64,000 bases of DNA from Chloroflexota bacterium (GCA_003551705.1 PUNJ01000190.1:5900-69899), one strand, 5' to 3'; counted from the first letter of the stretch, positions 24,981 to 57,036 are shown. Translations and numbers: made by a program. Notes: a model not told the origin generated them from the sequence alone.

Positions 24981-25159
24981 ATTGTTCTCCTTAAGCCGGC
25001 ACTGCACACGCTCGGGCATGCAGGGGGATACCCTGTCTCTGTTGAAATATAACCGCGCTTGAAATAACGGAGAATACCTAATAAGAGGTATTAAGACCCT
25101 TGCGGAATCCGGGCGACTGGATTTGGAAGAGGGCTTTGACTTCGATGGGTTCAGAGGTT

Positions 25160-36525: not shown

Positions 36526-37830
36526 TCACAATCTTTCTTGTCCTGGGAGGACACGGTAGCCATTACCTCCTTCGTCCTTGACATGGTACATGGCCATGTC
36601 GGCATTCATCAGGAGCGTTTCGGCATCCCGACCATGTTCTGGAAAAAGCGCAACCCCGATGCTGGCTGTCAACTTCAGTTCATGGGAATCTATAATAAAA
36701 GGTCTTTCGAAGGCTCCCTGGATTCTCTTGGCGACCGTGAGTACCGCTTCCGGCGTTATCTCGGCCAGCAGGAGGAGAAACTCGTCGCCGCCAAACCTCC
36801 CAACGAGATCGTTCTCTCGCAGGATGCTCTTCAACCTGATGGCCACGCATTTGAGCACCTGATCGCCCATCTTGTGCCCAAGCGTGTCATTGATGGCCTT
36901 CAGCCGGTCAAGATCGATCAATAGCAATGCTATTGTCCGATGGTAGTAATGTGCCAGCTCAAGCGCCCTGTTCAGGTATTCAGTAAAGAGCAACCGGTTG
37001 GGCAGTCCGGTAAGCGGGTCGTGATAGGCAAGGCGTCTTATCGCCTCTTCAATCCGCGATTCCCGATCGATGTTGTGAAGCCATTGCTGGACTTCCATCC
37101 CAGGTTCGTAAGGGGACAAGGGGGGTTCCTGAAAATAGAAGTTACGGTGTAGTCTGTTCTTCCGGACCAGAAAGGGATGAGTGGTGACTATGGCCCGAAC
37201 GATCTCAGGGGTTAGCTCTTGGCGGTCGTACTGGCACAAAGTTATACAGGGATACTGTGTCACGATATGCTTGTTGAGTCTTTCTTCGTGGTCTGCGGCC
37301 TTCCCGAAACCGGGATGCCGGCACAAAGTCGAACTCATTTGTGTCGAAATACGGATCGCCGGGTAGCCCTCTGCCAAGGCGTTCTTGCTCTCCTTCTCGA
37401 GCAAAGCCACGATATCATCGGAACTGAGCGTGCCCTTGCAGGCTGCCTCGACACCGCATAGGGCGGAGAGCTGACCTCGATTTTCGGCAGCCGGCACGTC
37501 TATGCCGTCCTCGTACAGGTATCGGCGAAGGCGATAAGCCGAATCGAGGTCGCCTATGTTTATGCACTTTTCTCCCCTTCTAATGCCGCCGGCAATAAAG
37601 GCAACAATATTTCTACGCCACTCCTGTTGGGATTCACAGATGGCCCCGATATGATCGTGAGAATAGAGATTACGTAACGCCTCCAAGAGGTCAATGGGCC
37701 TGCAGAGACGTTCGATCAATTGCATCTGGGAAGCCTGTTCTGCGGCGAGAGCCTCGAGCTGTGCCAGGCGTTCCCGCAGAGCCAGTACCTCCTCTGCAAG
37801 CTTCTCCCTTGACCTGCTGTTATCTAACAT
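36526..37830 (-). CDS. MEDS-domain diguanylate cyclase (GGDEF)
   Basis: N-terminal MEDS-like sensory region and a C-terminal GGDEF domain (YHDPLTGLPNR...RFGGDEFLLL). Confidence 0.85.
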   Translation of the reverse strand: MLDNSRSREKLAEEVLALRERLAQLEALAAEQASQMQLIERLCRPIDLLEALRNLYSHDHIGAICESQQEWRRNIVAFIAGGIRRGEKCINIGDLDSAYRLRRYLYEDGIDVPAAENRGQLSALCGVEAACKGTLSSDDIVALLEKESKNALAEGYPAIRISTQMSSTLCRHPGFGKAADHEERLNKHIVTQYPCITLCQYDRQELTPEIVRAIVTTHPFLVRKNRLHRNFYFQEPPLSPYEPGMEVQQWLHNIDRESRIEEAIRRLAYHDPLTGLPNRLLFTEYLNRALELAHYYHRTIALLLIDLDRLKAINDTLGHKMGDQVLKCVAIRLKSILRENDLVGRFGGDEFLLLLAEITPEAVLTVAKRIQGAFERPFIIDSHELKLTASIGVALFPEHGRDAETLLMNADMAMYHVKDEGGNGYRVLPGQERL

Positions 37831-43875: not shown

Positions 43876-46815
43876 CTAGCCGTCCCCCTGCGGGGCTTTG
43901 GAGGGCCTGCGTCGTGCCCGGTTATCCCCTGGGCCGGCAATAGGGATCGAGAAGACGAAGGTGCTGCCTTCACCCTTCCGGCTTCTCACCCAAATGCGTC
44001 CACCGTGAAGCTCAATGAGTCGCTTGCTTAGTGCAAGTCCTGTACCCAGCCCCCCCGAACGCCGGTCGCCCATTTCCAATTGCTGGTAGGGGTCGAAAAG
44101 CCTGGCTCGCATAGGCCGGGGTATGCCTGTTCCCGTATCGGATATGCGCACCACTATATCGCTTTCCGTCTCCGATGCTTGGACTGTGATCTTGCCGCCA
44201 TCGGGGGTGTACTTGCAGGCATTGTTGAGCAAGTTAAGGACGATCTGCCTCAAACGATATTGGTCTGCCTGCACTCTTGGCAGGTCGATGGGCAAGACGA
44301 ACACCAGTGATTGGCCCCGGCTGGCAAAGACCGGGTCCATGTCTTTTGAGACCTCTTCGAGGACTTCCAGAATGTCCACGGGTTCGCAGACCAGTTCCAG
44401 CAAGCCGATTTCTCCCCGGGCCAAGTCAACGAGTTCATCGGTCCTGCTGTTTAGTCGCAAGGCACCCCTGTAGATGTTGCGGGCCAGTTCCTGGCTGGTC
44501 CCTTCCGGGAGATTGGCCAATAGGGCACTACTGGCAGCCAGCACGGGAGTAAGGGGTGTCTTGAGTTCATGTACGAGGGCTCGCAGGAAGTCGGCCCGTT
44601 TCTGCATTTCCTCCTCAAGCTCGTGGCGTAAACGCCTCTCCTTCCTGTAAAGGTCCTGGAGCTTGTGCTGGGACCTCTCCCAGTCCGTTATATCACGCAG
44701 GGACATGAAGCCGGCCGTTTTGCCTTCGAACTCGGTGCTTATGCCTATGGCGCTCACCCAAAGCTCTTTACCTCCTTTGGTCTGTGTGCGAAACCGGGTT
44801 ACTCCACTTGATGCGTCCTCGAATATCTGTCTGATAACAAGTTCCAGGGTTTCTTGGTCTTCCGGTACGACCAAGGAAAGCGGGTCCATTCCCACAAGTT
44901 CCCGGGGCGAGGTAAACCCATGCATCCTGGCCATGGCCTGGTTCGCCAGAACTATCGATCTGGTGCTCTTCTCTATGACCACTTTACCGTCCAATGTGTT
45001 TTCGAACATTGCACGGTATCTGGACTCGCTGGCACGCAGTGCTTGTTCAGCGCTCTTGCGTTCGGTAATATCCTCCAACTGGAGCAAGTAGCCGGTCAGG
45101 TTATCCTCCGTCTCGCCCTTCAAAGGAGTGATGGTCACTGAGATGTGATACATGTCTTCCCTGAGGGTCTGGTAGTTGCTTCGCACCTTGCTGGTAGCCA
45201 GGTCAAAGGGCCCTTCATAAGCGACGGGCTCGCCCTTGCGGAGTTTCTTCTTGACACTGACGCTAATACTGGGATCGCCAAAAACGGAGTAATTCCTTGG
45301 AGCGTAATTGACCGGGAAGGCGAATAACTGCCTGAATGCCCTGTTCATGCTTGTCAGGTAGCCGTCCTTGTCCATCAAAGCTATGCCTGTAGGGGACTTT
45401 TCGTAGATGGTACGGAAGCGCTCCTCGCTCTTAACAAGCTCAGCTTCAACGCGGCGCCGCTCACTTACATCCCGGGCCATGGTTATGAAACCGTTTGGTC
45501 CCCCGCTGGCATTATTTAGTTGGCTGATCCTGGCTTCCAGACATACGGTGCCGCCGTCCTTGCACCTGGCTACAACATCGTTTATCCAAGTCGAAACGCC
45601 GGGTAAGGCTGTATACTGGTCAAACTGCTTTTGGGCCAGCTCAAAGGAGTCCGGCAGGACCAGGGCAGCCAGGTTCATACCCATGACCTCTTCCGGCGAA
45701 AAGCCGGTAACCAGCTTGATAGACGGGCTGGCATAGGTCAGGTACAAGTCCTGGTCCATGATGCAGATGACATCGGTGATGTTCTCGGCGAGCAGGCGAT
45801 ACCTTGCTTCACTCGCCTCGAGAGCGGCCCGTTCTTGCTTGATGCCGGTGACGTCGTGAATCAGCACCTGCCTGGCTCGCATACCCATGTAGGTCGCTGG
45901 GCCGGCTACCAACTCAATATCGAGCACCTTTCCCTCGAGAGTCAAGAAACGCATTTCTTGCCTCTGAACGTTGAGTAGCAACTGGTCTGGGAGACGGGTT
46001 TCAACTAGCGGCCTGTCTTCAGCAGGCACGAAGTCAAGCACAGACCTGCCTATGACATCCTCGCGTTGCCTGGCCTCCGCCAAACGTATTCCGGCAGTAT
46101 TTGCATAGCGGACCTTGCCTTCGCTGTAGATAAAGACCGGATCGGGAGAGAGTTCCAACCACTGGTAGTAGAGGTCCTCGCGCTCCTCCAGGGCTTTCTC
46201 GGTATCATCCAGGTCTTTGGGGGCTACACGCCCCGACTGGCCCTCCGCCTTGAACAAGGCGGACTGATAGTACTGGACAATGTCTACCACGTCATGTGCT
46301 GCCAGATAGTCCGTCCGGTAGCAACAAATGGACAGAATATGGCAGGTATCGAGACTGGCGTCGGCCTCTTTCCGGTTGGCTAGAATGTCTTTCCAATGCA
46401 GTCCTACGATGCCGGAGGGATCACCGGCAAGGCGGACGCCCCGGAAGCCCCTCCCCTGGCAACTGTGACAGGTTTTGACTAGTTCCCGCATTGGACGTTT
46501 CGGGTCCGGCCTTCCTCCGGTCATATACCAGTCATCGGTAGTGAGGATGGACATCTGCCCGCTGGCCAAATACCGCTCCAGTTGGTTTGTGGCCTCGCTC
46601 AGCGCCTCCCTGGCTTCCGCTTTGTCCAAGAAGGCGGGGATTATCCACCTGCATAATTCATCTTCTTCCAAGCCGGTGATGAAGTAGGGTACGAGAATGG
46701 CCAGAAGATCGGCCTTTGTACGGTAGAAGAGACAATAGTGCCCGGCCTTTTGGACATCACCCAAATGGTCGATTCCCGTCCTGCGCCCGGAAGCCATGAA
46801 GAGGTTATGTTTCAT
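43876..46815 (-). CDS. MEDS-domain multi-PAS sensor histidine kinase
   Basis: N-terminal MEDS-like region (GHYCLFY...), several PAS/PAC domains, HisKA (LVHELKTPLTPV) and HATPase_c (DTGTGIP...GGLGTGLALS). Confidence 0.85.
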   Translation of the reverse strand: MKHNLFMASGRRTGIDHLGDVQKAGHYCLFYRTKADLLAILVPYFITGLEEDELCRWIIPAFLDKAEAREALSEATNQLERYLASGQMSILTTDDWYMTGGRPDPKRPMRELVKTCHSCQGRGFRGVRLAGDPSGIVGLHWKDILANRKEADASLDTCHILSICCYRTDYLAAHDVVDIVQYYQSALFKAEGQSGRVAPKDLDDTEKALEEREDLYYQWLELSPDPVFIYSEGKVRYANTAGIRLAEARQREDVIGRSVLDFVPAEDRPLVETRLPDQLLLNVQRQEMRFLTLEGKVLDIELVAGPATYMGMRARQVLIHDVTGIKQERAALEASEARYRLLAENITDVICIMDQDLYLTYASPSIKLVTGFSPEEVMGMNLAALVLPDSFELAQKQFDQYTALPGVSTWINDVVARCKDGGTVCLEARISQLNNASGGPNGFITMARDVSERRRVEAELVKSEERFRTIYEKSPTGIALMDKDGYLTSMNRAFRQLFAFPVNYAPRNYSVFGDPSISVSVKKKLRKGEPVAYEGPFDLATSKVRSNYQTLREDMYHISVTITPLKGETEDNLTGYLLQLEDITERKSAEQALRASESRYRAMFENTLDGKVVIEKSTRSIVLANQAMARMHGFTSPRELVGMDPLSLVVPEDQETLELVIRQIFEDASSGVTRFRTQTKGGKELWVSAIGISTEFEGKTAGFMSLRDITDWERSQHKLQDLYRKERRLRHELEEEMQKRADFLRALVHELKTPLTPVLAASSALLANLPEGTSQELARNIYRGALRLNSRTDELVDLARGEIGLLELVCEPVDILEVLEEVSKDMDPVFASRGQSLVFVLPIDLPRVQADQYRLRQIVLNLLNNACKYTPDGGKITVQASETESDIVVRISDTGTGIPRPMRARLFDPYQQLEMGDRRSGGLGTGLALSKRLIELHGGRIWVRSRKGEGSTFVFSIPIAGPGDNRARRRPSKAPQGDG

Positions 46816-47105
46816 TACCCGCTGGCTGGCGGTGATACCTTGAGTAGCAAGGAGTCCCGCCTGAATTCCTATTGTTTTTACTCGATGGCCATAATATTGT
46901 CAACGTTACATAAGTGGCTTTGTCAATACCGGCTCCCAAAGAAATGTGGCCCTGGGACTCACCGGCCAGGCACGTTCCAAGAGGAATATTCCCCTTTGTA
47001 ACCAGGCGAAAGCCGATAAGGTTAAGAACGTTTCGAAAGTCTCAGTTTGATTAAAGTTTGCCAGGACCGCTTAACACTTCTGCCGGGGCGGCCAAATAGT
47101 ACGGG

Positions 47106-48155
47106 TCAGGTGTTGAACCACGTGGAATGGCTTTCGTAGACAGTATACCCCTGACAGATGGTGTGCACCGAAATACGTGTATATTTGTCCGCTGGTGAGG
47201 TGAGAACGATGGTCAAATTGATGGCGTAACCCTGCTCCAAGTCAAATTCCTCGGTCTGCCCGGCATTCAGAAGCTGTCCGTCTCCTGCATCGAAGCCAGC
47301 TAGGACGTTGACCTTCTCCGCCTTTGCCGTACCCATGTTTGATACGTCGATGTTGATCGTGTATTCAGAACCGCGACTGGTAGCCTCCCAGGTGTGATGA
47401 AGGATGGGTTTTGGCTTAATCTCATAGATGGTCGCTGTCTCGTCCTTGTATTGATCAGGAATTTCGCCTATTTGCCACCCCTTGCCTGTTGTCTCGAGGT
47501 ATAGATAACAGCGCCCGTTATGGTCATAGCAGGCGCCATTCATGCCCGGTTCTCGGAGTATGCCCACTGCCATATGTTCGGGTAATCTGATAAGGACTGC
47601 GTCATGACCCATGGCTTGCAGGATGGCAGCCATAAGGATTGAGGAATCCTCGCAATCGCCCCCCACGTCTACCAGGGTCTCCACGGGATAGCGAGGATAT
47701 TCATCGTAACCCGTAGTCAGGGCGTCAGAGGCATACGGCAGGCTCTGGACAAAAGCTATGACGAATCTCAGTAATTCGAGCCTTGACAGACCCTCTGGAC
47801 CAGTTGTGCGTCGTAGTTTGCCGGCGAGATCCTCGATCAAGCTATCGTCCATCGGGTCTGTAACGTAAACGGAGTAGTTCTCGGTCGGCGCCCGTTCCCT
47901 GCTTGAATAGTAATCGTAAAGGGCGGCCGGGATGTGAAGCCTCATTGACCATGTCTGGTCGGCATATTCCCATTCAAAATCCCGGACCAGAACCTGGCAG
48001 TCTGGGGAAAGGTCGTCATATATTCTTGTTGGGTCAGAAGAGAACGTTCTTACGGGTTCCGTCACGGCGCAGCTTGTGAAACACAGCGCCAGTAGGATGA
48101 CCAGGATGGATATTTCCCGCAGCATACCCATGTTTCGATCGTACCAGATGTTCAC
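47106..48155 (-). CDS. transglutaminase-like domain lipoprotein (hypothetical)
   Basis: Signal peptide with a Cys (LLALCFTSC). Transglutaminase-like Cys/His/Asp core GGDCEDSSILMAAILQAMGHDAV. Confidence 0.65.
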   Translation of the reverse strand: MNIWYDRNMGMLREISILVILLALCFTSCAVTEPVRTFSSDPTRIYDDLSPDCQVLVRDFEWEYADQTWSMRLHIPAALYDYYSSRERAPTENYSVYVTDPMDDSLIEDLAGKLRRTTGPEGLSRLELLRFVIAFVQSLPYASDALTTGYDEYPRYPVETLVDVGGDCEDSSILMAAILQAMGHDAVLIRLPEHMAVGILREPGMNGACYDHNGRCYLYLETTGKGWQIGEIPDQYKDETATIYEIKPKPILHHTWEATSRGSEYTINIDVSNMGTAKAEKVNVLAGFDAGDGQLLNAGQTEEFDLEQGYAINLTIVLTSPADKYTRISVHTICQGYTVYESHSTWFNT

Positions 48156-48333
48156 ATCAGGTACAACAGACCTCCTGAAAGAGTAACGCTTAAGAAGAAT
48201 AACGTTTCATTTGCCGCTAAGGTTAGGCCCAAGGCCGGCAAGATGGTGCTGAACCGGGTAGCAGGATGCGCAGTGTGAGCTTGACCTCCATAAGGAGCGG
48301 ACTGGGTGGTGGCGTGTCGGCCTGGCGAATGGG

Positions 48334-50511
48334 CTAGTAAGCGATCTTCCTGGTCGGCCATTTTCGGGCCAGTGTCACCTTGGCTGTGCAGCCCTTGGGT
48401 ACGGAAACGACGGTACGGCCGTTGCGCTTCTGGTAGAATACATCGATGGTGGCCTGTCCCAGCCTCAGGCCGCGTACCTCGACCTCTCGGAGCCAGTGGG
48501 GAAGTTGTGGGGCAACGATTACTAATTCATTGTTCATGGCGTTGGGTACCAGCCCCAGGACTGCTTGCAGAAGCATGGGAATGGAACCTGCAGCCCAAGC
48601 CTGCGGACGGCAAGCTACCGGATAACGTACAGGCTTGTTATGGAGGGACCTGGGTGTGCCGCAGAACAACTCCGGTAACCTGTAGTAATCGAAGGTGCGT
48701 GCAGAGTCGTAGATGGCCGTGGCCAGCTCATTGAGTTCCGGGATCAGGCCATAACGTTTGAAGCCCATACCGATGATGGCGTTGTCATGCGGCCAAACAC
48801 TGCCGAGGTGATAGCCCATGGGGTTGTAGCGTATCGAAGCTGAGCTGAGCGTCCTTATTCCCCAACCCGAGAACATGTCTGGAGCAAACAGCCTTTCCGC
48901 CACCATGATTGCTTTGTCTCCGTCTGCTATCCCGGTCCACAGGCAGTGGCCTGGATTAGAGGTGATGCTGCCCGCCGGGGACTTATCGCCGGCCAGAGCT
49001 AGGGCGTAGAAGTTCTCTTCAGCCATCCAGAAATCAGTGTTGAACCGGCCCTTGAGGCATTTCGCATCATGGTTCAGTCGCCGGGCGGCCGCGGTGTGGC
49101 CCAGCAGATATAAGAGCCATGCCATGCCCCTTTTTGCAGCGTACACGTATGCCTGTATTTCTACCAGGGCTATGGGCGGTTTGACCATGGTGCCGTCGGC
49201 ATTGACTATACCGTCATTGGAGTCCTTCCATCCCTGGTTCAGGATGCCCTTGGGAGATCGGCGGGAATACTCGACATAGCCGCAACGGTCAAGGTCCCCG
49301 TATTGGGTGATCCACTGGAACGCGGTCATGATACTGGGCTCGAGTTCCCGTATCAGGTCGAGATCGGCTGTCCAGCCGACGTACTGAGTAGCCACCATGA
49401 TGAAAAGCAGGGTGGAATCAACAGACCCATAATAAGGAGTCATGGGTATCTCTCCCATGGAGGCCATTTCTCCCATCCTGAGCTCGTGGAGTATCTTCCC
49501 AGGTTCCTCATCACGCCAGTCATCGTACTTCTGTCCCTGCCAGCTAGCCAGGATACGCAGTGTCGTCCGGGCCAGGTCGGGATTCATTGCCAGCATCTGC
49601 AGGGAGGTTATGAGACTGTCCCGTCCGAACAGGGCTTGAAACCACGGTGTCCCGGCTGCTATGAAACTGCCGCTGTGGTCTGAAGTGACCAGCATTCGGA
49701 CGTCTTTGAGGGCCCGGTCGAGCATGGCATTGAAGAATTCATTGTCAGTGAAGATGCTGGTGCACCTATCGAGCCAGTCCCGGTATGACCTTTGGAGATA
49801 TTCAAATTCGGCAAAGAAATGTTCTTCTTGCGGGACCTGGCCGGGGATAACTCTGAGGGTGAAGGTCAGACTCTCCCTATGCCTGAGCTTGATATAGAAC
49901 AAGGCCCCGCTGTTCCATACCTTGGCGGGTTGTGGGGAGAACGTTATGGTGGTGGTACGGTGCACCCCGTCCAATCCCTGCCTGCCGTAGGCTACCCCGG
50001 AGGGGGAGACCCTGGGCGAATCAAGTTGCCCGCGGCGCAGTCTGCGCTCGCCTCTCACTTCAAATATATCGGCAAAGTCAGCATTAAGGTGAAAGCGAAG
50101 GCCTATTTCGATGGGAAAAATATTGAAGTTGGTGACCTGGACAATCTCCAGGAAGGAACCCTTTATGATGCGCTGGCGGATAATCTCCACGCTGTCTTTT
50201 GGCAGATCACGACCTTGCCGGTCCGACATATGCGGATTGGTCAGTTGGTGCTCTGAACCGAAGCCCATCTCTGCCGAGGAAAGAAGGACCATCGGCTTCA
50301 CACCGTCCAGTGACAGGTCGAACACGGAGAGATATCTGGTATCGTCCTTGTACAATCCGTAGCCTGCCATACTGCCGGCAGGCATGTTGCCCTCTTGGTC
50401 TGTCATCAGGAAGAGCTTGTCTTCTTTGATGACGAGGGCGTCGCGAATATCGTCGAGCCCGATGGGCTCGCCATGTGGAATAAGGCGTTCCGTATCTGAC
50501 AATGCACTCAC
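48334..50511 (-). CDS. amylo-alpha-1,6-glucosidase (glycogen debranching enzyme-like, GDE_N + GDE_C)
   Basis: Length of 725 aa. Conserved GDE C-domain segments (WFQALFGRDSLI...; NQGWKDS; GYHLGSVWPHD). Confidence 0.8.
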   Translation of the reverse strand: MSALSDTERLIPHGEPIGLDDIRDALVIKEDKLFLMTDQEGNMPAGSMAGYGLYKDDTRYLSVFDLSLDGVKPMVLLSSAEMGFGSEHQLTNPHMSDRQGRDLPKDSVEIIRQRIIKGSFLEIVQVTNFNIFPIEIGLRFHLNADFADIFEVRGERRLRRGQLDSPRVSPSGVAYGRQGLDGVHRTTTITFSPQPAKVWNSGALFYIKLRHRESLTFTLRVIPGQVPQEEHFFAEFEYLQRSYRDWLDRCTSIFTDNEFFNAMLDRALKDVRMLVTSDHSGSFIAAGTPWFQALFGRDSLITSLQMLAMNPDLARTTLRILASWQGQKYDDWRDEEPGKILHELRMGEMASMGEIPMTPYYGSVDSTLLFIMVATQYVGWTADLDLIRELEPSIMTAFQWITQYGDLDRCGYVEYSRRSPKGILNQGWKDSNDGIVNADGTMVKPPIALVEIQAYVYAAKRGMAWLLYLLGHTAAARRLNHDAKCLKGRFNTDFWMAEENFYALALAGDKSPAGSITSNPGHCLWTGIADGDKAIMVAERLFAPDMFSGWGIRTLSSASIRYNPMGYHLGSVWPHDNAIIGMGFKRYGLIPELNELATAIYDSARTFDYYRLPELFCGTPRSLHNKPVRYPVACRPQAWAAGSIPMLLQAVLGLVPNAMNNELVIVAPQLPHWLREVEVRGLRLGQATIDVFYQKRNGRTVVSVPKGCTAKVTLARKWPTRKIAY

Positions 50512-50642
50512 GGCTGAACCTCGTTAGTCTAACATGAAATCGGAAGCCACAATCAAGTTAAAAGAGCCCTGGAACGTCTCTAAGATTGACCTCCTTGCGG
50601 GGGCGGAGCGCTCACCCATTCTTTTGATGTCTCTCGCTGGTG

Positions 50643-51779
50643 TCATATCAGGATTTCGTTGCCTCGGCCAGTAGCATGACCAGGCGGCGTCTTGTCCCAG
50701 TCCCTAAACTCCGGTTGGATGGCCGCCCTGGCAGGCCGGCTTACAACTCTTTCCCTGCCTGATAACTGCATGACGCGCTTGTAGGCTCCAAGGTATCCAT
50801 CGGTCATTCGTGAGATGTTGAAGTTCTTCGCAACATGCTCCCGGCAGAGGCCCGGATGAATAAGGTGCACGTTCTCTATGGCTTTCTCCATTTCAGCCAT
50901 TTCGCTGACCACGAATCCCGTTTCGCCGTGTTTCACTACCTCCGGTGCCGAGCCCCTATTGAAGACGACGACCGGAGTGCCACATGCCATGGCCTCGAGA
51001 AAGAAAAGACCGAAGGGTTCATCCCAGGTAATGGGGGCAACCAGGCAGTGGGCTGCTGGCAGCAACTCCCGCTTGGCCTTGTTATCAGCCTCTCCGATGT
51101 ATTGTATGAGGCGGTTATCTACCTGGGGCTTGACCTGTGCCTCGAAGTAGTCGTGGTCAATCGCATCCACGTTGCCCGCTATTATCAACGGACGTCCCAG
51201 CTTTCTGGCCAGGGCGCAAGCCAGATGGGGCCCCTTCTCTGGACTCAAACGGGCGAGGAACAGCATATGCTCCCGGCGCGGTCCGTCATTGAAGGGGTAA
51301 GAATCGACGTCTATGGAGTTATAGATCACGCCAGCAAAATTTCTCTTGGGGGCTAGCAGCCTCTTTGCCGATTCACTTATGGTGTTATACCAGCCCTCAT
51401 ATTGCCGGAACATCAATGCCCAGTCGCCCTCCAGTGCACCATGAAGGGTTGTAAGCATAGGGGTGCGGACGAACCCGGCCAGGGACATGCCTTCGAGTAG
51501 TGTGTGATTATGTATTATGTCAAAATCGGCGGCCCTCAGCAGGCAGGCCCTCGCATTCAACATGTTCAAGACGTTCTTGTTCCTATCAGAGCCGCGCAGA
51601 AAGCGGTCACAAACAGGCACCAGCGTGGCTCGAGTTATTGAATCGCCGCTGGCGAAAAGGGTTACAGCATGACCCCGCCGTACCAATTCCTCGGTCAGCA
51701 GGCTTACGACCAACTCGGTGCCCCCATAAGCTGTAGGCGGGACTCTCATCTCCAGGGGCGAAAGCATGGCAATATGCAT
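50643..51779 (-). CDS. family 4 (GT-B) glycosyltransferase
   Basis: N-terminus MHIAMLSP...YGGTE and the C-terminal EPFGL..EAMACGTPVV motif. Confidence 0.8.
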   Translation of the reverse strand: MHIAMLSPLEMRVPPTAYGGTELVVSLLTEELVRRGHAVTLFASGDSITRATLVPVCDRFLRGSDRNKNVLNMLNARACLLRAADFDIIHNHTLLEGMSLAGFVRTPMLTTLHGALEGDWALMFRQYEGWYNTISESAKRLLAPKRNFAGVIYNSIDVDSYPFNDGPRREHMLFLARLSPEKGPHLACALARKLGRPLIIAGNVDAIDHDYFEAQVKPQVDNRLIQYIGEADNKAKRELLPAAHCLVAPITWDEPFGLFFLEAMACGTPVVVFNRGSAPEVVKHGETGFVVSEMAEMEKAIENVHLIHPGLCREHVAKNFNISRMTDGYLGAYKRVMQLSGRERVVSRPARAAIQPEFRDWDKTPPGHATGRGNEILI

Positions 51780-52339
51780 GTTCCTCTCCTTTCTAGGTCA
51801 GGCCCAGTTTCCGGCTTCGGTATTCCCCGGCAGAAGTATCCGAGTAATGAATGGAACCGGTATACCTGATTGTCAAAAGAACACACTGATATATAGCCTT
51901 AGCGTCCGGATGCAAGAAACATGAACCCGCTGTCCTGCATGCTTGGTTACGTGCTGCGGGCGCAAAGTGACAGTGCCGTCTTACCTTGCCAGCCTGTTAT
52001 GCATACTTTCGCGACGGCTGTTCTCTTCTAAGTATAGAGCTAACGGCTGCAGTTAGATTGATAGGCGGGTCAAGATTATGTAACCATTTGGCACATGGGC
52101 ATGGATGGTGGATACCGAGTCAAGCGCGCTGTATTTGTCCCAGAGTCCCAGCCTTCGCTATTGCTGCTCCACGCCAACCCCCCTTTGTCCGTCAAGTGCT
52201 TGCGACTGGATCGGTCTTGACTGCGTTTACCGTGTGTGGGCCGTCTCCTATGGCAAGCGCAGATGGTGGGTTTCGTCGCTCCGGGCCATCACAGTCCACG
52301 ATGACTGATACCGTGATGTCCTTCGCTACCCGCTAAATG

Positions 52340-52500
52340 CGGACCGCGCCGCTCCTCTACGCCACCCTACTGCCGTCTCACCCCGTCACATGCAACAGCG
52401 CCAGGACGCTCACGCAGGGTGGTGTTGAGCAAGGCGCTAGCGGCTTAGGTATGAACCTGGCGGGGGTAGGGCTGCAGGTCGACGGCGCTTAGAGTGTACA
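52340..52500. repeat. intergenic long-hairpin repeat element, copy 2 (diverged arms CTCTACGCCACCCTAC / GCAGGGTGGTGTTGAG)
   Basis: Shares about 70% identity with copy 1, including the GTCGACGGCGC and GCGCTAGCGGCTTAGG segments. Confidence 0.5.
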
Positions 52501-52562
52501 GTGCCGAGCGGAACCCACCATTTATCACGTTCATGGCGGTGCGGCAGCGGGGGCGGGTTCAC

Positions 52563-53456
52563 CTATTCCAGTTGATCGAGCAGACCATCGAATACTTCGC
52601 TGGCCCAGTCCATGTCCAAGTTGCCGCCCCATCTGTGATGGACCTCCATTTGGTCCGTACCCCTGCCGGTTACAAGGACGGTGGTATAGTATTTGGTGTC
52701 TATTTCGAAGACGGCAGCCAAACCCTTTTGTTCCAGGTAGTTGACCTGGCGGAAATGGATGCGGTCGGCGTATTCTGCTTCAAGCCGCTCCCAGGTATCC
52801 CAATCAAAGGGACAGGTGTCACATCCGTCCCAGAAGATTATCAGCTCGGGTTTGCCGTCTTCAGGATCGGGCAGCAACTGGCCTCCGGCGCCGGTAGCGA
52901 AGGGGGCGGAGATGACCACGACCAGACATAAGGCCAGGGCGGCAAGCACAGTCTTCATCCCAGCCCTGGTATCCTTGACGTTGCGTCCGAAAAGGAAGCC
53001 TATCCCGGCGATTTCCGCCTTGTGCCTCTGCCAGATAAGCAACGCCGCTGTGCCAAGCATGGCTACATCTACCGCGATGGCCTGGGCATGGGTAAGGGCC
53101 AGCAAATCGCCAAAGCAGCCGCAGAGTTCCACATTGGGGCGGTAAAGGCTGTAGATGCCGCCTATGATGAAGCTGACAGCCATCAAGATGCTCAATCCGG
53201 CAGCCAGCCTGGTGAAGACGCCCAGCACCAAAGCGGCACCGACTACAAACTCGACCCACGGGAGGGCATGGCCGTAGACCTCGGCCAGTCCTACGGGCAG
53301 CAGGTCATATCTGACCACCGTATCTACGAACAGCGCCTGGTTCTGCAGCTTGGTTATTGCGGAAATGAGGAAGACTGTACCCAGGGCCAGTCTGAATACG
53401 GTCACCAACCAGGTATTTTCTGCCAGGCGCTTAAAGTGCTGCACACAGCCCTCCAT
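52563..53456 (-). CDS. MauE/DoxX-family membrane protein fused to a thioredoxin-like (TlpA-like) domain
   Basis: MauE CGCFG motif within TM helices. C-terminal thioredoxin-fold region with a CxxC motif (WDGCDTCPF). Confidence 0.75.
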   Translation of the reverse strand: MEGCVQHFKRLAENTWLVTVFRLALGTVFLISAITKLQNQALFVDTVVRYDLLPVGLAEVYGHALPWVEFVVGAALVLGVFTRLAAGLSILMAVSFIIGGIYSLYRPNVELCGCFGDLLALTHAQAIAVDVAMLGTAALLIWQRHKAEIAGIGFLFGRNVKDTRAGMKTVLAALALCLVVVISAPFATGAGGQLLPDPEDGKPELIIFWDGCDTCPFDWDTWERLEAEYADRIHFRQVNYLEQKGLAAVFEIDTKYYTTVLVTGRGTDQMEVHHRWGGNLDMDWASEVFDGLLDQLE

Positions 53457-53578
53457 TTCAGGCGGTTATGCCACACTCTTTTTACAGTCTATGGCGACCA
53501 GATGTCAATTGTTAGGGGGCTTCAGATCACGGTACTGCGGGCAACGTAACAAACCAGCTTTGCCGGATGCAGTCCCTG

Positions 53579-53986
53579 CTAGACAGGTCTCAGTTCCGCC
53601 TTCAGCAGTCTGGTGACTCGCTTTCTGATCTCGTCCCTGATCTCCCTTACTTCATGTATCGGCTTGCCCTTGGGGTCCTCCAGGTCCCATTCCAGCGCGT
53701 CGGTGAAACTCGCTGGACAGACCCCCTCGCCGCAGCCCATGCTTATGATCATGGCCGCCTCCTGCAGCATATCGGCATGGAGCATCTTGGGCGAATTACG
53801 GCTCAAGTCCAGACCTATTTCGAGCATTGCCTCAAGCACCGTAGCATCAATGGTAACCGCCGGATCGGTGCCGGCCGAGACCGCCTCCGCCTTGCCGTCG
53901 GCCATCTGGTTGAAAAAGGCCTCAGCCATCTGGCTGCGGCCGGAATTGTGTAGACAAACGAAAAGCACCTTCTTCATGTCCTGCAT
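53579..53986 (-). CDS. arsC: arsenate reductase (thioredoxin-coupled, LMW-PTP family)
   Basis: P-loop VLFVCLHNSGRSQMAEA (CX5R) and the downstream Cys pair (ISMGCGEGVC). Confidence 0.85.
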   Translation of the reverse strand: MQDMKKVLFVCLHNSGRSQMAEAFFNQMADGKAEAVSAGTDPAVTIDATVLEAMLEIGLDLSRNSPKMLHADMLQEAAMIISMGCGEGVCPASFTDALEWDLEDPKGKPIHEVREIRDEIRKRVTRLLKAELRPV

Positions 53987-54120
53987 CCTCACTTACCTTC
54001 TGAGACCATCCTCTGTTTTATGGGCGCAACCGGACGGCATATCCGTATCTCGCCGGTGCGGGATGCCGGAACCGGCGTCCGTGCTCCGTGTTCCCAAGAG
54101 CGGTCTTGTCCCTGAGCGTG

Positions 54121-54564
54121 TTACTGCTGCAGCGCGTCTCCGGCAGGCGGACCGGAATCCCTGTGGTCCGGAAGTCGCAATTCCAGTGCCCGGCTCCACT
54201 TGCACGTTCCCCCTCCATGGTCATGTTGAGGCTGCCCGGATGAGGCATCCGGCATCCCGGAGCAGCCGCACCCTTTCTGGGCTGGCCCGTCGGTTGCCCG
54301 ACCAGCCTCCGCCTCACCGGCTTGCCCGCCCTGTCGTATGGCGGCTATTACCTGTTCATGGCCGGGAATCCCCCGCTGCTCTGCATTATCGGCCACCACG
54401 CGATCATCAACCCTGACCTCGAAGATGCCACCGCTGCCCTCTTTCAATTGGGCTCTTATGCCCAATTCCTTCTCGATTTTCGCCGCCAGACCGGCGGCGT
54501 GGGGCAGGAAGTTTCACTCCCGGCAGTAGGTGATCTGAATGGTCTGTTGACTCTTGCTGGTCAT
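54121..54564 (-). CDS. SelW/Rdx-family selenoprotein; in-frame TGA (Sec) at 54526-54524 in a CxxU motif; C-terminal boundary uncertain
   Basis: Minus strand reads ggaaaggagtcgaATG, then MTSKSQQTIQITYCRE-TGA-NFLPHAAGLAAKIEKELGIRAQLKEGSGGIFEVRVDDRVVADNAEQRGIPGHEQVIAAIRQ... This matches the Rdx pattern [IxIxYCxxU...GSGGxFEV...]. A 7-bp GC hairpin lies 14 nt after the UGA. The track splits this gene into ORFs 54514..54696 and 54121..54465. Confidence 0.55.
54481..54499 (-). promoter_or_regulatory. SECIS-like hairpin (CGCCGCC-GGUCU-GGCGGCG) downstream of the in-frame UGA
   Basis: Perfect 7-bp GC stem whose apical loop contains GU. It starts 14 nt 3' of the UGA on the coding strand. Confidence 0.45.
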
Positions 54565-54595
54565 TCGACTCCTTTCCGGTCCTTGCCCGGCCGGG

Positions 54596-54853
54596 CTACT
54601 GTTGCTCGGCCCTGGCTTGTGCATTGATGATGAACTGGGTGACCTCTGCTTTGGAAGGTACGCGGCCAAAGCAGACAACCTCCTCATCGAGGACAAGTCC
54701 AGGGGTGGTGAGGACAGGGTATTCCATGATCTTCTTCATGTCCTTTACCGGCTCAATGGTTGCCTCTATCCCCAACTCCTGTACCACTTGACGGACCGTC
54801 TGCTCCAGTTGATGGCACTTGGCGCAGCCGGTGCCCAAAACCTTGATCCTCAT
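54596..54853 (-). CDS. thioredoxin-fold redox-active disulfide protein (Thioredoxin_3 / TM0983-like)
   Basis: MRIKVLGTGCAKCHQLE CxxC N-terminus typical of the small thioredoxin-like proteins found next to arsenical permeases. ATG follows aaaggagatcacc. Confidence 0.8.
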   Translation of the reverse strand: MRIKVLGTGCAKCHQLEQTVRQVVQELGIEATIEPVKDMKKIMEYPVLTTPGLVLDEEVVCFGRVPSKAEVTQFIINAQARAEQQ

Positions 54854-54880
54854 GGTGATCTCCTTTCACAAATTTAGCAC

Positions 54881-55918
54881 TTAACCCGGAATAAGACCAA
54901 AGATGTATCCGGTTACGGTTGCCATGATGACAACCAGGCAAATGTAGGCGAGGGTTTTCCGGGTACCCATGATGCTGCGAATCACCAGCATGTTGGGTAG
55001 AGACAGGGCCGGACCCGCCAGCAGCAGGGCCAGCGCCGGACCCTTGCCCATGCCCAAGTCCATGAAGGCCCGGACTATGGGTACCTCCGTGAGGGTGGCA
55101 AAATACATGAGTGAGCCCATCACCGAGGCCAGGGCGTTGCCGGAGAGGGTGTTGCCGCCGACGTAGTTCGAGACTACGTCCTCGGGCAAGGCCACCCGCA
55201 GCATGCCCGCGGCGAAGACGCCCACCAGAAGCCAGGGTACGATTAGCCGGGCAAAGTGGAGGGTCTCCCGCATCCACTGGGCGATATCCCCCCGGCTGAA
55301 CCAGCGCCAGAGGACCAGGGCCAGGATGGCCAGCAGGGCTGCGGTGCCGGCCCATATCTGGGCCGCCGTAACCAGCAGAATGGCCACCAGGACGGCGAAG
55401 AAGACGGCCTGGTGCAGCACGGATTTGGCATCGGGGTCGTTCTGTAGCATGGCGAAAGCCCCGGCGTCCCGCCCTGCCTCGTCGCGCCGGTAGATAAAGG
55501 CCATGACCAGGCCGATGCCGGCGGCGAAGGCTACCGCGGCGATGGCCCGGGCCGCCCCCAGGTCGTAACCCAGGAGCCTGGCCGAGAAGACCACGGCCAG
55601 CACGTTTATGGCGGGTCCGGAGAACAGGAAGGCGACGGCCGGGCCGATGCCGGCGCCTCTCTTGTAGATGCCCCCGAAGAGTGGCAGCACGGTGCACGAG
55701 CAGACGGCGAGAATGGTCCCGGAGACGGAGGCCACGCTGTAGGACAGGAACTTGTTCGCCCTGGGACCGAAGTACTTCAGCACTGCCGTTTGTGAAATGA
55801 ACACGGCTATGGCTCCGGCGATGAAGAAGGCGGGCACGAGGCAGGTCAAAACGTGTGCCGACAGGTATTCGAGTAAACCGTCGACCCCGCCTTGGAGCAG
55901 GTCTACGAAGTAGTCCAT
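54881..55918 (-). CDS. DUF318/COG0701 permease (ArsP-like putative organoarsenical efflux permease)
   Basis: Eight or more TM helices with the conserved CSC motif (ILAVCSCTVLP). Located in the ars operon. ATG follows aggaagtaagga. Confidence 0.8.
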   Translation of the reverse strand: MDYFVDLLQGGVDGLLEYLSAHVLTCLVPAFFIAGAIAVFISQTAVLKYFGPRANKFLSYSVASVSGTILAVCSCTVLPLFGGIYKRGAGIGPAVAFLFSGPAINVLAVVFSARLLGYDLGAARAIAAVAFAAGIGLVMAFIYRRDEAGRDAGAFAMLQNDPDAKSVLHQAVFFAVLVAILLVTAAQIWAGTAALLAILALVLWRWFSRGDIAQWMRETLHFARLIVPWLLVGVFAAGMLRVALPEDVVSNYVGGNTLSGNALASVMGSLMYFATLTEVPIVRAFMDLGMGKGPALALLLAGPALSLPNMLVIRSIMGTRKTLAYICLVVIMATVTGYIFGLIPG

Positions 55919-56304
55919 TTACCGGTTGTCCTTACTTCCTTCCATTTGCTTTCAGGCTCTGGATTCCGTCTTCCCAGACTGTGTACAATAACCTGGTTTA
56001 CCACGCCACCCCGACTCACACCCCGACTCAGTACGCCACCCCGGCGAAAGTCGCAGACTCGCTTGCGGAGAGCCGGGGTCCAGGGAGCACCGCCTTCGAT
56101 GGCGTTCGTCTCCTGGATACCGGCCTTCGCCGGTATGGTAGCACGAAGATACGCATAGCCTCTTCGTCAATGCCTTTCCAGGGGTACAATCTTGCTCCTG
56201 CTTTCCTACATTGCGACACAGCCTGTCCGCCGGGATGGCCGGCGAAGAAGGCTGTATTGTTGCTGTAAGCCCCATTCTTGAACTGGTGCTCATCATTCCA
56301 GACC

Positions 56305-56661
56305 TCACACCGGCGGCTTCCGGGCACAGCCGGTGCCGACCCTGGCGGCTGTCTTGAGGCGTTCCAGGTCCAAGGCTGCTGTGGGGTTACCCGCCAGTCC
56401 TTGCTTGACGGCAGCCATGAGGAGGGCGTATTGCTCCGGACCGTCCTCGTCGATGGAATAGAGGGACCACAGTCCCTCCTTCCTGAGTTTGAGGAAGCCG
56501 GCGTCGTACAGGGCCATGAGGTTTCGCGATGCCCTGGTCTGGGAGATATCAAGGGCCTGCATGATCTCGCAGACACAGCATTCACGCTCGAGCAGGACGT
56601 TCAGCATTCTGAGCCGGGTCTCGTCGGACAGGGCCTTGAAGGACTTTATTAGGTCTCTCAT
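56305..56661 (-). CDS. arsR: ArsR/SmtB-family metalloregulator
   Basis: wHTH with an As(III)-binding ECCVCEI motif (ELCVCDL type). Confidence 0.85.
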   Translation of the reverse strand: MRDLIKSFKALSDETRLRMLNVLLERECCVCEIMQALDISQTRASRNLMALYDAGFLKLRKEGLWSLYSIDEDGPEQYALLMAAVKQGLAGNPTAALDLERLKTAARVGTGCARKPPV

Positions 56662-57036
56662 GGGGCTCCTTGTAAGCTTATATGCGCAACTATGCATCTA
56701 TAATAGCAGAGAAAATCCATGACGGTCAAGATATGGGGGGATCCAATGAACGCCTCGGTCTACACCACCGTGCCTGAGCGCTTGGCCCAGGCCGCCGTAT
56801 TCCTTGGCTGGCAAAGATCAAAAATATGCGGGGAGGGTGGCCAACTGGCGATCCCAGAAATGTGACGTCTGCGTAGGGACCCAGGTCCCCCTCATCTACA
56901 TTGAACACCATCACCAGAATCGAGTGTACCCTATAGGTGCGGCAAAGCGAGGCAGCGAATGTAGACGGGTGTTGCTTGCCGGGGTGCCGAGCGACACCCA
57001 CCAATGAAGAGGTCTGATGATGGTCCCAAACAAGAC

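What the first reader, a model, noticed from the sequence alone, without database searches (positions are those of the whole stretch)
54121..54564. Missed selenoprotein: SelW/Rdx-family gene with in-frame UGA and SECIS-like hairpin inside the ars operon
The ORF track shows two unrelated short ORFs at 54514..54696 and 54121..54465. Reading the minus strand through the TGA at 54526-54524 gives one continuous Rdx/SelW-like protein: MTSKSQQTIQITYC-RE-U-NFLPHAAGLAAKIEKELGIRAQLKEGSGGIFEVRV... The stop codon falls exactly at the second redox position of the family's CxxC/CxxU motif. There is a good RBS (ggaaaggag) upstream of the ATG. A perfect 7-bp GC hairpin (CGCCGCC-GGUCU-GGCGGCG) starts 14 nt after the UGA, and bacterial SECIS elements sit in that position. 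The gene is sandwiched between a thioredoxin-like CxxC protein and arsC, and ArsC of this type is thioredoxin-coupled. This suggests a dedicated selenol/thiol reducing relay for arsenate detoxification, which I am not aware of being described. The 60-aa low-complexity C-terminal tail (GGQAGEAEAG...HDHGGG...) is suspicious and could hide a frameshift or a different true stop.
Basis: partly seen in the sequence, partly recalled or inferred. Interest (0 to 1): 0.8.

Follow-up and report, generated by a model that had tools for sequence, protein, structure and literature searches.

The report
Uncalled SelW-like selenoprotein in ars operon
A small gene that gene finders split at a UGA codon is a genuine member of the known bacterial SelW-like selenoprotein family, and it sits, as several of its relatives do, inside an arsenic-resistance operon, which gives a testable clue to a protein family whose bacterial function is unknown.

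Summary
Read through, the minus-strand ORF 54564-54121 encodes 147 residues. Residues 8-78 match the whole Pfam Rdx model (E 1.7e-12), and the TGA falls on the second redox position of CxxC/CxxU.

Of the 80 best relatives in other genomes, 52 have TGA, 28 have TGC or TGT, and none has TAA or TAG at that codon. The protein is conserved on both sides of it.

The hairpin 14 nt downstream (loop GGUCU, -14 kcal/mol) is kept in the UGA genes (85% paired, with compensatory changes). It is not kept in the Cys genes (57%). It therefore behaves as a bacterial SECIS.

The gene lies in arsR-arsP-arsE-like thioredoxin-selW-arsC. Ten relatives forming one clade, from three phyla, also sit beside arsenic genes (ArsR, ArsP, ACR3, ArsM, ArsF/G).

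SelW-like selenoproteins have been known since 2004-2005, so this is a new member of a known kind. I found no description of the arsenic link.

Two things stay open. The Sec machinery could not be checked, because none of it is in the window. The 69-residue tail does not look coding.

The parts
54121..54564 (-). SelW-like (Rdx-family) selenoprotein gene: 147 codons including Sec17, plus the stop TAA at 54123-54121
   Evidence: Translation. Pfam Rdx E 1.7e-12 and NCBIfam TIGR02174 36.3 bits against a cut-off of 34.2. The gene was not called in the independent Logan contig L001.
54514..54516 (-). In-frame TGA read as selenocysteine (residue 17, motif C14-R-E-U17)
   Evidence: Aligns with the second Cys of CxxC in homologs and in PDB 3DEX and 2FA8. 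The same column holds 52 TGA, 23 TGC and 5 TGT in 80 relatives.
54481..54499 (-). SECIS-like hairpin: 7-bp stem (54499-54493 with 54487-54481) and loop GGUCU (54492-54488), starting 14 nt after the UGA
   Evidence: -14.0 kcal/mol. Conserved in register in 53 UGA genes (85.4% paired, 3 of 7 pairs with compensatory changes). Not conserved in 28 Cys genes (56.6%).
54569..54577 (-). Shine-Dalgarno-like GGAAAGGAG, 4 nt before the ATG
   Evidence: Read directly from the sequence.
54331..54543 (-). Rdx domain (residues 8-78)
   Evidence: Pfam PF10262 matches profile positions 1-74 of 74. Codon usage is coding-like, +0.59 per codon.
54124..54330 (-). C-terminal tail (residues 79-147), low complexity, containing GCGCSG and HDHGGGTC. 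It is translated by default, and its function is doubtful.
   Evidence: No Pfam hit and no relatives. Codon-usage score is -0.09 per codon against 0.46 +/- 0.16 for true frames. The sequence is identical in a second assembly.
54596..54853 (-). Thioredoxin-like CxxC protein (GCAKC) of the MTH895/ArsE family, immediately upstream
   Evidence: Pfam Thioredoxin_3 E 1.1e-26. NCBIfam TIGR00412 107.4 bits against a cut-off of 62.
54881..55918 (-). ArsP-type permease
   Evidence: Pfam ArsP_1 E 6.4e-78.
56305..56697 (-). ArsR/SmtB metalloregulator, first gene of the operon
   Evidence: Pfam HTH_5 and NCBIfam NF033788 78.5 bits against a cut-off of 55. A promoter-like site lies at 56729-56700.
53579..53986 (-). 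LMWP-type arsenate reductase ArsC, immediately downstream
   Evidence: Pfam LMWPc E 2.1e-20. The best NCBIfam hits are arsenate reductases, all below their equivalog cut-offs.
52563..53456 (-). MauE/DoxX membrane domain fused to a CxxC thioredoxin-like domain, last gene of the cluster
   Evidence: Pfam MauE E 4e-23 and DoxX. The CxxC motif WDGCDTCP is visible in the translation.

Best explanation
This is a real, unannotated gene for a SelW-like (Rdx-family, thioredoxin-fold) selenoprotein.

How it is made: the UGA at 54516-54514 is decoded as selenocysteine. The hairpin 14 nt downstream (loop GGUCU) acts as the bacterial SECIS that recruits SelB carrying Sec-tRNA(Sec). The result is a 147-residue protein with the active pair Cys14-x-x-Sec17.

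Where it sits: it is co-transcribed from the arsR promoter within arsR-arsP-(ArsE-like thioredoxin)-selW-arsC. It groups with SelW-like genes that recurrently sit in arsenic-resistance islands of Dehalococcoidia, Zixibacteria and Dethiobacter.

What it most likely does (inferred): it is an As(III)-induced selenol/thiol exchanger serving the arsenic island as a whole. It reacts with trivalent arsenicals or arsenic-thiol adducts and passes them, or reducing equivalents, to the island's thiol-dependent proteins (ArsP/ACR3/ArsM, ArsC, ArsE/F). It is not a partner of ArsC alone.

Shown here: family membership, the UGA/Cys column, the conserved hairpin and the conserved arsenic context.

Inferred: actual Sec insertion in this organism, co-transcription, and the biochemical role.

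My confidence is about 0.85 for the identity and about 0.4 for the role directed at trivalent arsenic.
For: Identity:
- Pfam Rdx covers the full model, E 1.7e-12.
- TIGR02174 CXXU_selWTH scores above its cut-off.
- PDB 3DEX matches at E 1.2e-10, with U aligned to the second Cys of CTQC.

Sec decoding:
- At the same column, 80 relatives have 52 TGA, 28 TGC/TGT and no TAA/TAG.
- The protein is conserved on both sides of the TGA.
- Database fragments start just after the TGA, or show W where TGA was read with code 4.
- The hairpin is 85.4% paired in UGA genes, against 23-62% in shifted registers and 56.6% in Cys genes, with compensatory changes at 3 of 7 pairs.
- The loop carries the conserved G expected of bacterial SECIS elements (PMC1088965).
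- TGA is an ordinary stop for 11 of 35 other genes in the window, so the code is not reassigned.

Context:
- ArsR, ArsP, an ArsE-family thioredoxin and ArsC flank the gene.
- A promoter-like site precedes arsR, and no terminator-like site occurs before the end of arsC.
- The synteny is the same in L038 and L039.
- Ten relatives forming one clade lie next to ArsR, ArsP, ACR3, ArsM or ArsF/G.
- L002 also has ACR3 downstream.

Extra Cys motifs in this group fit As(III) binding: CGC loops, CCC linkers, a fusion to DUF2703, and GCGC in the tail here.
Against: - No tRNA-Sec, selA, selB or selD lies in the 64 kb window. The rest of the genome is not available, so Sec decoding in this organism is unproven.
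- The hairpin overlaps the conserved peptide A-x-x-L-A-A, so part of its conservation is protein-driven.
- The window's protein sits on a long branch outside the ars-linked clade in an unbootstrapped tree. It also lacks that clade's CGC loop.
- The tail has non-coding-like codon usage.
- No experiment ties any bacterial SelW-like protein to arsenic, and the functional statement rests on gene neighbourhood alone.
Confidence: 0.75

Rival explanations
1. The SelW-like protein is a dedicated link in a reducing relay (thioredoxin-like protein to SelW-like protein to ArsC). It re-reduces the disulfide formed in the LMWP-type arsenate reductase after each turnover.
For: The gene lies directly between a CxxC thioredoxin-like gene and arsC in the window, and in L038 and L039. 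ArsC has a P-loop Cys plus a C-x4-C pair, as thiol-relay LMWP reductases do (sequence). Rdx proteins carry their CxxC/U motif at the thioredoxin redox position.
Against: Eight of the ten ars-linked relatives have no ArsC within the DNA retrieved. They sit with ArsM, ACR3, ArsF/G or a DUF2703 fusion instead. The ArsC matches no NCBIfam equivalog above its cut-off, so its reductant class is undetermined. Extra Cys-rich loops and linkers are not needed for a simple relay.
Confidence: 0.25
2. The TGA is a true stop. The locus is then a decayed or non-functional remnant, giving a 16-residue peptide plus an untranslated or separately started fragment. One way this could arise is a host that has lost the Sec machinery.
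For: Gene callers found no gene here. No Sec machinery is present in the window. The long tail with non-coding codon usage could be a sign of decay.
Against: The N-terminal 16 residues (IQITYCRE), the RBS and the ATG are intact and family-typical. The hairpin is a perfect 7-bp stem with the conserved G-U loop. Two independent assemblies carry the same intact sequence. 52 relatives have the same TGA.
Confidence: 0.07
3. The 69-residue tail is a functionless run-on, translated only because the ancestral stop was lost. The working protein is the ~80-residue Rdx domain alone. The opposite reading is that the tail (GCGCSG...HDHGGGTC) is an arsenic- or metal-binding extension.
For: Codon usage of the tail resembles intergenic DNA (-0.09 per codon). 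It has no Pfam hit and no relatives. The relatives with the same synteny end after about 100 residues.
Against: Tails of variable length that carry CC, CxC or CCC motifs recur in the ars-linked relatives and in metagenome hits. Examples are L009, L019, P0046 and P0017. Low-complexity Gly/Ala/Pro-rich segments score poorly on codon-usage tests whether or not they are functional.
Confidence: 0.5
4. The protein is a general-purpose antioxidant or thiol oxidoreductase, and its position in the ars operon is incidental.
For: Most SelW-like genes retrieved (the Rokubacteria/Methylomirabilota and Myxococcota groups, and all Cys forms) have none of the arsenic neighbours tested. The family is abundant in seawater communities with no stated arsenic link (PMC2398784).
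Against: Ten relatives in three phyla, plus L002, have arsenic genes as immediate neighbours in different arrangements. Chance placement is unlikely to give that.
Confidence: 0.1

Closest known systems
Bacterial SelW-like selenoproteins (Pfam PF10262 Rdx; NCBIfam TIGR02174 CXXU_selWTH). [quoted passage not shown]
   Same: Full-length Rdx domain. CxxU motif with Sec at the second position. UGA followed by a small-loop hairpin with a G. Small single-domain protein. Sec forms are more common than Cys forms among close relatives.
   Different: It carries a 69-residue low-complexity tail. It is embedded in an ArsR-controlled operon. It scores below the cut-off of the only equivalog model (NF041051, 58.2 against 88).
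Solved Cys-containing bacterial Rdx proteins: SAV_2001 (PDB 3DEX), Atu0228 (2FA8), and the 'selenoprotein W-related' structures 2OKA, 2OJL, 2OBK and 2P0G
   Same: Alignable over residues 1-77 (E 1.2e-10 to 3DEX). The redox motif is in the same place.
   Different: Those proteins have CTQC with Cys, no UGA, and no arsenic context that I know of. Their function is also unknown.
ArsD, the thioredoxin-fold As(III) metallochaperone of ars operons (from my own knowledge)
   Same: A small thioredoxin-fold protein encoded in an ars operon. It has clustered Cys (here Cys and Sec) that could bind As(III) and hand it to a transporter. This is a functional analogy only.
   Different: There is no sequence relationship: the Pfam scan found only Rdx. 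ArsD partners the ArsA ATPase, which is absent here. ArsD has no Sec.
Thioredoxin and thioredoxin-reductase genes carried in ars islands to feed LMWP-type ArsC, and the ArsE/ArsF/ArsG organoarsenical system (NCBIfam TIGR00412, NF040494, NF040495; Chen, Zhang and Rosen 2019, cited in PMC9144182)
   Same: Small thiol-redox proteins co-encoded with arsenic enzymes. The window's upstream neighbour is an ArsE-family thioredoxin-like protein. Relatives of the SelW-like gene sit next to ArsF- and ArsG-family genes.
   Different: The SelW-like protein belongs to a different family and uses Sec. No ArsF or ArsG homolog was detected in the window, where a MauE/DoxX-thioredoxin fusion sits instead.
SAO (Sec-assisted organometallic) operon proteins SaoE and SaoT (PMC13188914)
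   Same: A PF03773-type permease paired with a small thioredoxin-like protein, selenoproteins in a metal or metalloid context. The window's ArsP has a sub-threshold hit to SaoE (110 against 325 bits) and its thioredoxin-like protein has a faint hit to SaoT.
   Different: All scores are far below the cut-offs. The thioredoxin-like protein here has Cys, not Sec. SelW-like is not a listed SAO component.

Membership tests
Rdx / SelW-like family (PF10262, TIGR02174) | Significant full-length match to the family profile | tested here: met
   Pfam Rdx scores 47.8 bits against a cut-off of 22.6, with residues 8-78 covering profile positions 1-74 of 74. TIGR02174 scores 36.3 against 34.2.
Rdx / SelW-like family (PF10262, TIGR02174) | CxxC/CxxU motif near the N-terminus, with Sec at the second position | tested here: met
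   In C14-R-E-U17, U aligns with the second Cys (or with W/TGA) of homologs and with CTQC of 3DEX and 2FA8.
Rdx / SelW-like family (PF10262, TIGR02174) | Thioredoxin-like fold | not tested
   The prediction tools refuse sequences carrying U-to-C or a stop. The fold is inferred only from sequence homology to solved structures.
NF041051 SelTWH_Campy (equivalog) | Score above the curated cut-off | tested here: not met
   58.2 bits against a cut-off of 88. This is the best-scoring model, but the protein is not a member.
Bacterial selenoprotein gene | In-frame UGA at a position held by Cys in homologs, with conservation on both sides | tested here: met
   The column holds 52 TGA, 23 TGC, 5 TGT and no TAA/TAG in 80 loci. 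The N-terminal I-x-I-x-Y-C and the C-terminal domain are both conserved.
Bacterial selenoprotein gene | SECIS stem-loop just downstream of the UGA, with a small apical loop containing G | tested here: met
   7-bp stem, loop GGUCU, starting 14 nt after the UGA. It is conserved with covariation in UGA genes only. The feature is as described in PMC1088965. No Rfam family matched.
Bacterial selenoprotein gene | Sec machinery (selA, selB, selD, tRNA-Sec) in the same genome | not testable with these tools
   None is present in the 64 kb window. The only other copy of the locus is an 8.6 kb Logan contig, and the source genome was not identified.
Bacterial selenoprotein gene | Selenium actually incorporated | not testable with these tools
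   This needs 75Se labelling or mass spectrometry.
ars (arsenic resistance) operon | ArsR-family regulator with arsenic transport or transformation genes on one strand | tested here: met
   ArsR (NF033788 above its cut-off), ArsP_1 permease and LMWPc ArsC lie on the minus strand, with a promoter-like site before arsR. ArsR and ArsP are 72% identical to those of a Dehalococcoidales locus that also encodes ACR3.
ars (arsenic resistance) operon | ArsC assignable to the thioredoxin-coupled class | tested here: inconclusive
   The best NCBIfam hits are TIGR02689 (glutaredoxin type, 84.5 against 157.6) and TIGR02691 (thioredoxin type, 69.2 against 174.3). Both are below their cut-offs.
ArsD metallochaperone (considered for function only) | Sequence membership in the ArsD family | tested here: not met
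   The Pfam scan of the joined protein returned only Rdx and one weak unrelated hit.

The most novel reading that the evidence does not exclude
A clade of Sec-containing Rdx-fold proteins, including this one, is a dedicated accessory of arsenic-resistance islands. It would use a Cys-x-x-Sec site, supplemented by nearby CGC or CC motifs or tails, to capture trivalent arsenicals through As-Se/As-S bonds. It would then hand them to ArsP, ACR3 or ArsM, or resolve arsenic-thiol adducts. This would be the first functional assignment for bacterial SelW-like proteins and a selenium-based counterpart of the ArsD chaperone.
Probability: 0.3. Interest if true: 0.7.

Novelty: new member of a known kind. 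Interest (0 to 1): 0.45.

Why it matters
SelW-like proteins are among the most abundant bacterial selenoproteins in metagenomes, yet the reviews still list their function as unknown (PMC1088965, PMC13188914).

Here a SelW-like gene sits in an ArsR-controlled operon, and the same association recurs in at least three phyla. That gives a concrete, testable context: arsenite or organoarsenical stress.

It also illustrates a practical point. Such genes are systematically missed or truncated by gene callers, or are translated with W at the Sec codon. Arsenic islands may therefore be under-annotated for selenium-dependent components.

If the arsenic link were confirmed, it would connect bacterial selenium use to arsenic detoxification at the level of a single protein.

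Tried and rejected
- The word-indexed protein search with the joined 147-residue protein found nothing at E <= 1e-3.
- The scan of viral contigs found no relative.
- The first, diverse alignment was too variable for the locus search. A narrower one worked.
- Rfam gave no match at gathering threshold over the window, nor at E <= 1 over 53500-56800.
- A crude scan of the window for other ORFs interrupted by TGA gave no convincing second selenoprotein gene.
- Pfam scans of about 36 window genes found no selA, selB or selD.
- Attempts to identify the source organism failed. The exact-protein look-up of ClpB found nothing. No paper mentions SRR490150.
- The tail plus intergenic region has no unusual RNA stability (z = -0.8) and no terminator-like site. 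I therefore dropped the idea of a structured RNA element there.
- I rejected a frameshift or assembly error in the tail, because an independent assembly is identical across the gene.
- I rejected a reassigned UGA, because TGA ends 11 of 35 other genes.
- ORF-based neighbour analysis of the high-GC Rokubacteria and Myxococcota loci was too noisy to interpret.
- The ArsEFG paper could not be read.
- Literature searches for any SelW-ars link returned nothing.

Full report
**1. What is in the sequence**

On the minus strand an ATG at 54564-54562 is preceded by GGAAAGGAG (54577-54569). It opens a frame that runs to TAA at 54123-54121 with a single internal stop. That stop is TGA at 54516-54514.

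An independently assembled contig from a public run (Logan SRR490150, L001) covers window 46454-55039. It has 11 mismatches, none inside this gene, and no gene was called there between the thioredoxin-like gene and arsC. The gene really is 'missed', and its sequence, tail included, is not an assembly artefact.

**2. Family membership**

I scanned the joined protein with the TGA written as Cys.
- It matches Pfam Rdx (PF10262) at E 1.7e-12, with residues 8-78 covering the whole 74-position model.
- It passes the curated cut-off of NCBIfam TIGR02174 'SelT/SelW/SelH family' (36.3 against 34.2 bits).
- It stays below the cut-off of the Campylobacter equivalog NF041051 (58.2 against 88).

Against solved structures the best match is SAV_2001 (3DEX, E 1.2e-10), followed by Atu0228 (2FA8). 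In both alignments residue 17 falls on the second Cys of Y-C-T-Q-C. The TGA therefore sits exactly at the CxxC/CxxU redox position.

**3. Is the UGA read as Sec?**

An exhaustive HMMER search with the 63 residues after the UGA gave 46 hits. They fall into three kinds:
- 55-60-residue fragments that begin a few residues after the Sec column;
- full-length proteins with C-x-x-W;
- a few proteins with C-x-x-C or C-x-x-S.

For one C-x-x-W protein I fetched the DNA. The 'W' is a TGA that a gene caller read with another genetic code.

A scan of species-representative genomes found 518 relatives, and the best 80 loci were kept. At the Sec column 52 have TGA, 23 TGC, 5 TGT and none TAA or TAG. The peptide is conserved both before the codon (I-x-I-x-Y-C-x-x) and after it. 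In the window itself TGA terminates 11 of 35 Pfam-supported genes, so UGA is not reassigned genome-wide.

**4. The hairpin**

The hairpin CGCCGCC-GGUCU-GGCGGCG (54499-54481) starts 14 nt after the UGA and is worth -14.0 kcal/mol on its own.
- In a gap-free alignment of the 53 UGA-containing genes, the same seven pairs (nt 18-24 with 30-36, counted from the U) are formed in 85.4% of cells. Shifted registers give 23-62%. Three pairs show changes on both sides, for example U-A to G-C at pair 22-32 in seven distinct sequences. The loop keeps (A/G)GU(C/U)U.
- In the 28 Cys-containing genes the same register pairs in only 56.6% of cells, no better than a shifted register.

One caveat applies. The stem overlaps the conserved peptide A-x-x-L-A-A, so part of the conservation is protein-driven. 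The contrast with the Cys genes argues that not all of it is.

**5. What could not be shown**

The window holds one tRNA (Ala) and no tRNA-Sec. Pfam scans of about 36 window genes found no SelA, SelB or SelD. I could not identify the source genome. Sec decoding in this particular organism therefore rests on the intact gene, the hairpin and the comparative pattern. It does not rest on the machinery.

**6. Context in the window**

All genes below are on the minus strand.
- ArsR/SmtB regulator, 56697-56305.
- ArsP_1 permease, 55918-54881.
- Thioredoxin_3 protein of the MTH895/ArsE family, with GCAKC, 54853-54596.
- The SelW-like gene.
- LMWP-type ArsC, 53986-53579.
- A MauE/DoxX-thioredoxin fusion, 53456-52563.

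A promoter-like site (10 of 12 matches, with an extended TG) lies just upstream of arsR. The only terminator-like sites on this strand are one inside the start of arsC and a weak one just after its end. The 31-nt gap to the upstream gene fits co-transcription, which is inferred and not shown.

**7. Context in relatives**

tblastn with the window's proteins and with neighbours of relatives shows ten loci beside arsenic genes. Curated profile scans confirm the names: ACR3 456 bits, arsenite methyltransferase 343, ArsG family 282, ArsF family 84, all above their cut-offs.

| Loci | Organisms | Arrangement |
|---|---|---|
| L038, L039 | Dehalococcoidia | ArsR-ArsP-ArsE-like Trx-(lipoprotein)-SelW-ArsC-ArsF-ArsG-ACR3. 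L039 has the full set, with ArsR and ArsP 72% identical to the window's; L038 starts at ArsP (71%), with no ArsR in the DNA retrieved |
| L031, L034, L008 | Dehalococcoidales/Chloroflexota | L031/L034: ArsP-Trx-SelW-ArsF-ArsG-ACR3; L008: SelW-ArsF-ArsG-ACR3 (no ArsP or Trx) |
| L003, L006, L009 | Zixibacteria and an unclassified MAG | ArsR-SelW-DsbD-like-ArsM (no DsbD-like hit in L006) |
| L019, L023 | Dethiobacter and a Bacillota MAG | SelW fused through a CCC-rich linker to DUF2703. In L019 an ACR3-like transporter (below the ACR3 cut-off) and ArsR-ArsP-Trx lie nearby; L023 is a 2.8 kb contig that shows only the fusion |

An eleventh, short contig (L002) has TCA (Ser) at the Sec column and ACR3 downstream.

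None of the other 70 loci has these neighbours. Those 70 are the Rokubacteria/Methylomirabilota, the Myxococcota and all the Cys forms.

In an unbootstrapped neighbour-joining tree the ten ars-linked genes form one clade. The window's protein sits on a long branch beside that clade and the Rokubacteria clade, and its nearest sequences by distance are L003, L009 and L006.

**8. Function**

The arsenic link is real and recurrent, but ArsC is adjacent only in the window and in L038 and L039. The common denominator across the arrangements is proteins that handle trivalent arsenicals (ACR3, ArsP, ArsM, ArsG) together with small thiol-redox proteins (ArsE-like, ArsF, DsbD-like).

Several members also carry extra cysteine clusters:
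- a CGC or CxC loop just before the conserved Pro;
- CCC-rich linkers;
- Cys-bearing tails.

The window's tail has GCGCSG and HDHGGGTC. Three-coordinate S/Se sites are typical for As(III) (my own knowledge).

I therefore favour a role serving the whole island: a selenol/thiol exchanger acting on trivalent arsenicals or arsenic-thiol adducts. I put this at about 0.4. Both are inferences from gene neighbourhood only.

**9. The tail**

Residues 79-147 have no Pfam hit and no detectable relatives. Their codon-usage score is -0.09 per codon. That compares with 0.46 +/- 0.16 for true coding windows of the same length, and it is close to the adjacent intergenic DNA. The Rdx domain scores +0.59.

The region has no unusual RNA stability (z = -0.8). 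There is no in-frame stop before 54123 and no indel difference between the two assemblies. The tail will therefore be translated if Sec is inserted. Whether it is functional or a recent run-on is open, and I put it at about even.

**10. Comparison with what is known**

SelW-like proteins with CxxU are an established prokaryotic selenoprotein family.
- They were the most abundant family in the Sargasso Sea and GOS data sets (PMC1088965, PMC2398784).
- They are listed as 'predicted with high confidence' in a 2026 review, with function unknown (PMC13188914).
- They are noted for having few Cys homologs in Sec-using organisms (PMC1794560).

The gene is therefore a new member of a known kind, and missing it is a routine annotation failure.

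Three full-text searches for a link between SelW-like proteins and arsenic resistance returned nothing relevant. The 2026 review does note that many recently found selenoproteins are implicated in metal or metalloid resistance. The arsenic-linked clade, its fusions and its Cys-rich extensions may thus be an undescribed variant.

**11. Verdict**

- Observation: confirmed.
- Interpretation as a missed selenoprotein in an ars operon: supported.
- ArsC-specific mechanism: only weakly supported.
- Interest: moderate. The find is ordinary as a selenoprotein, but it offers a testable functional context for a family with no known bacterial function.

Noticed in passing
window 55919-56304: A 386-nt spacer separates the arsR stop from the arsP start. 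The syntenic Dehalococcoidales locus L039 has only about 55 nt there. The spacer has no convincing ORF and no Rfam match. What it contains is unexplained.
   Followed up: partly
window 52563-53456 (-): The last gene of the cluster fuses a MauE/DoxX membrane domain to a thioredoxin-like domain with WDGCDTCP. Relatives carry ArsF (a thioredoxin-like lipoprotein) plus ArsG (DsbD_2) at the equivalent place. This may be a different solution to the same membrane thiol-transfer task.
   Followed up: partly
P0002, P0004, P0005, P0009, P0011, P0014, P0030, P0039, P0044; L083:258-494: Many database 'proteins' of this family show Trp at the Sec position. For P0009 the codon is TGA. These are selenoprotein genes translated with a UGA=Trp code by gene callers on short contigs, which is an annotation artefact.
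   Followed up: partly
L019:6001-6876 and L023; L009:6001-6993: In the Dethiobacter-like MAGs the SelW-like domain is fused through a linker rich in CCC motifs to a DUF2703 / 'DF family (seleno)protein' domain. In L009 it continues into a 312-residue extension with GSGCCCPGG...CCKPP and a hydrophobic segment.
   Followed up: partly
L031, L034, L038, L039, L019, L006, L009 (loop before the conserved Pro of the Rdx domain): Several ars-linked relatives carry an extra Cys, or a CGC/CSC motif (for example GGQCGCLP), that the window's protein and the non-ars clades lack. It could be a third ligand for As(III).
   Followed up: no
L002:499-762: This SelW-like gene of the ars-linked type has TCA (Ser) instead of TGA at the Sec column, one base away from TGA. 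ACR3 lies downstream. It could be a real CxxS variant or a sequencing difference.
   Followed up: partly
window 54227-54270: A nested inverted repeat lies inside the tail-coding region: TGAGGCTGC/GCAGCCGCA around CCGGATG/CATCCGG. The wider region is not unusually stable.
   Followed up: partly
L004, L007, L010-L016, L018, L020-L022, L024-L030, L032, L033, L035-L037, L040, L043, L046, L050: About 30 Rokubacteria/Methylomirabilota species representatives each carry a near-uniform SelW-like gene (YC[GS]E-U-NYLPQASSL), always with TGA. None has the arsenic neighbours. This fits the reported very large selenoproteomes of that phylum (PMC13188914).
   Followed up: no
window 36526-37830 (-) and 43876-46815 (-): Two signalling proteins share an N-terminal MEDS sensory domain. 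One carries GGDEF, and the other carries PAS domains and a histidine kinase.
   Followed up: no
window 20958-25019 (-): A 1353-residue fusion combines a HAD hydrolase, a trehalose phosphatase and a complete GH65 glycoside phosphorylase/hydrolase.
   Followed up: no
window 546-1868 (+) and 47106-48155 (-): Two long ORFs (440 and 349 residues) have no Pfam match at the thresholds used.
   Followed up: no
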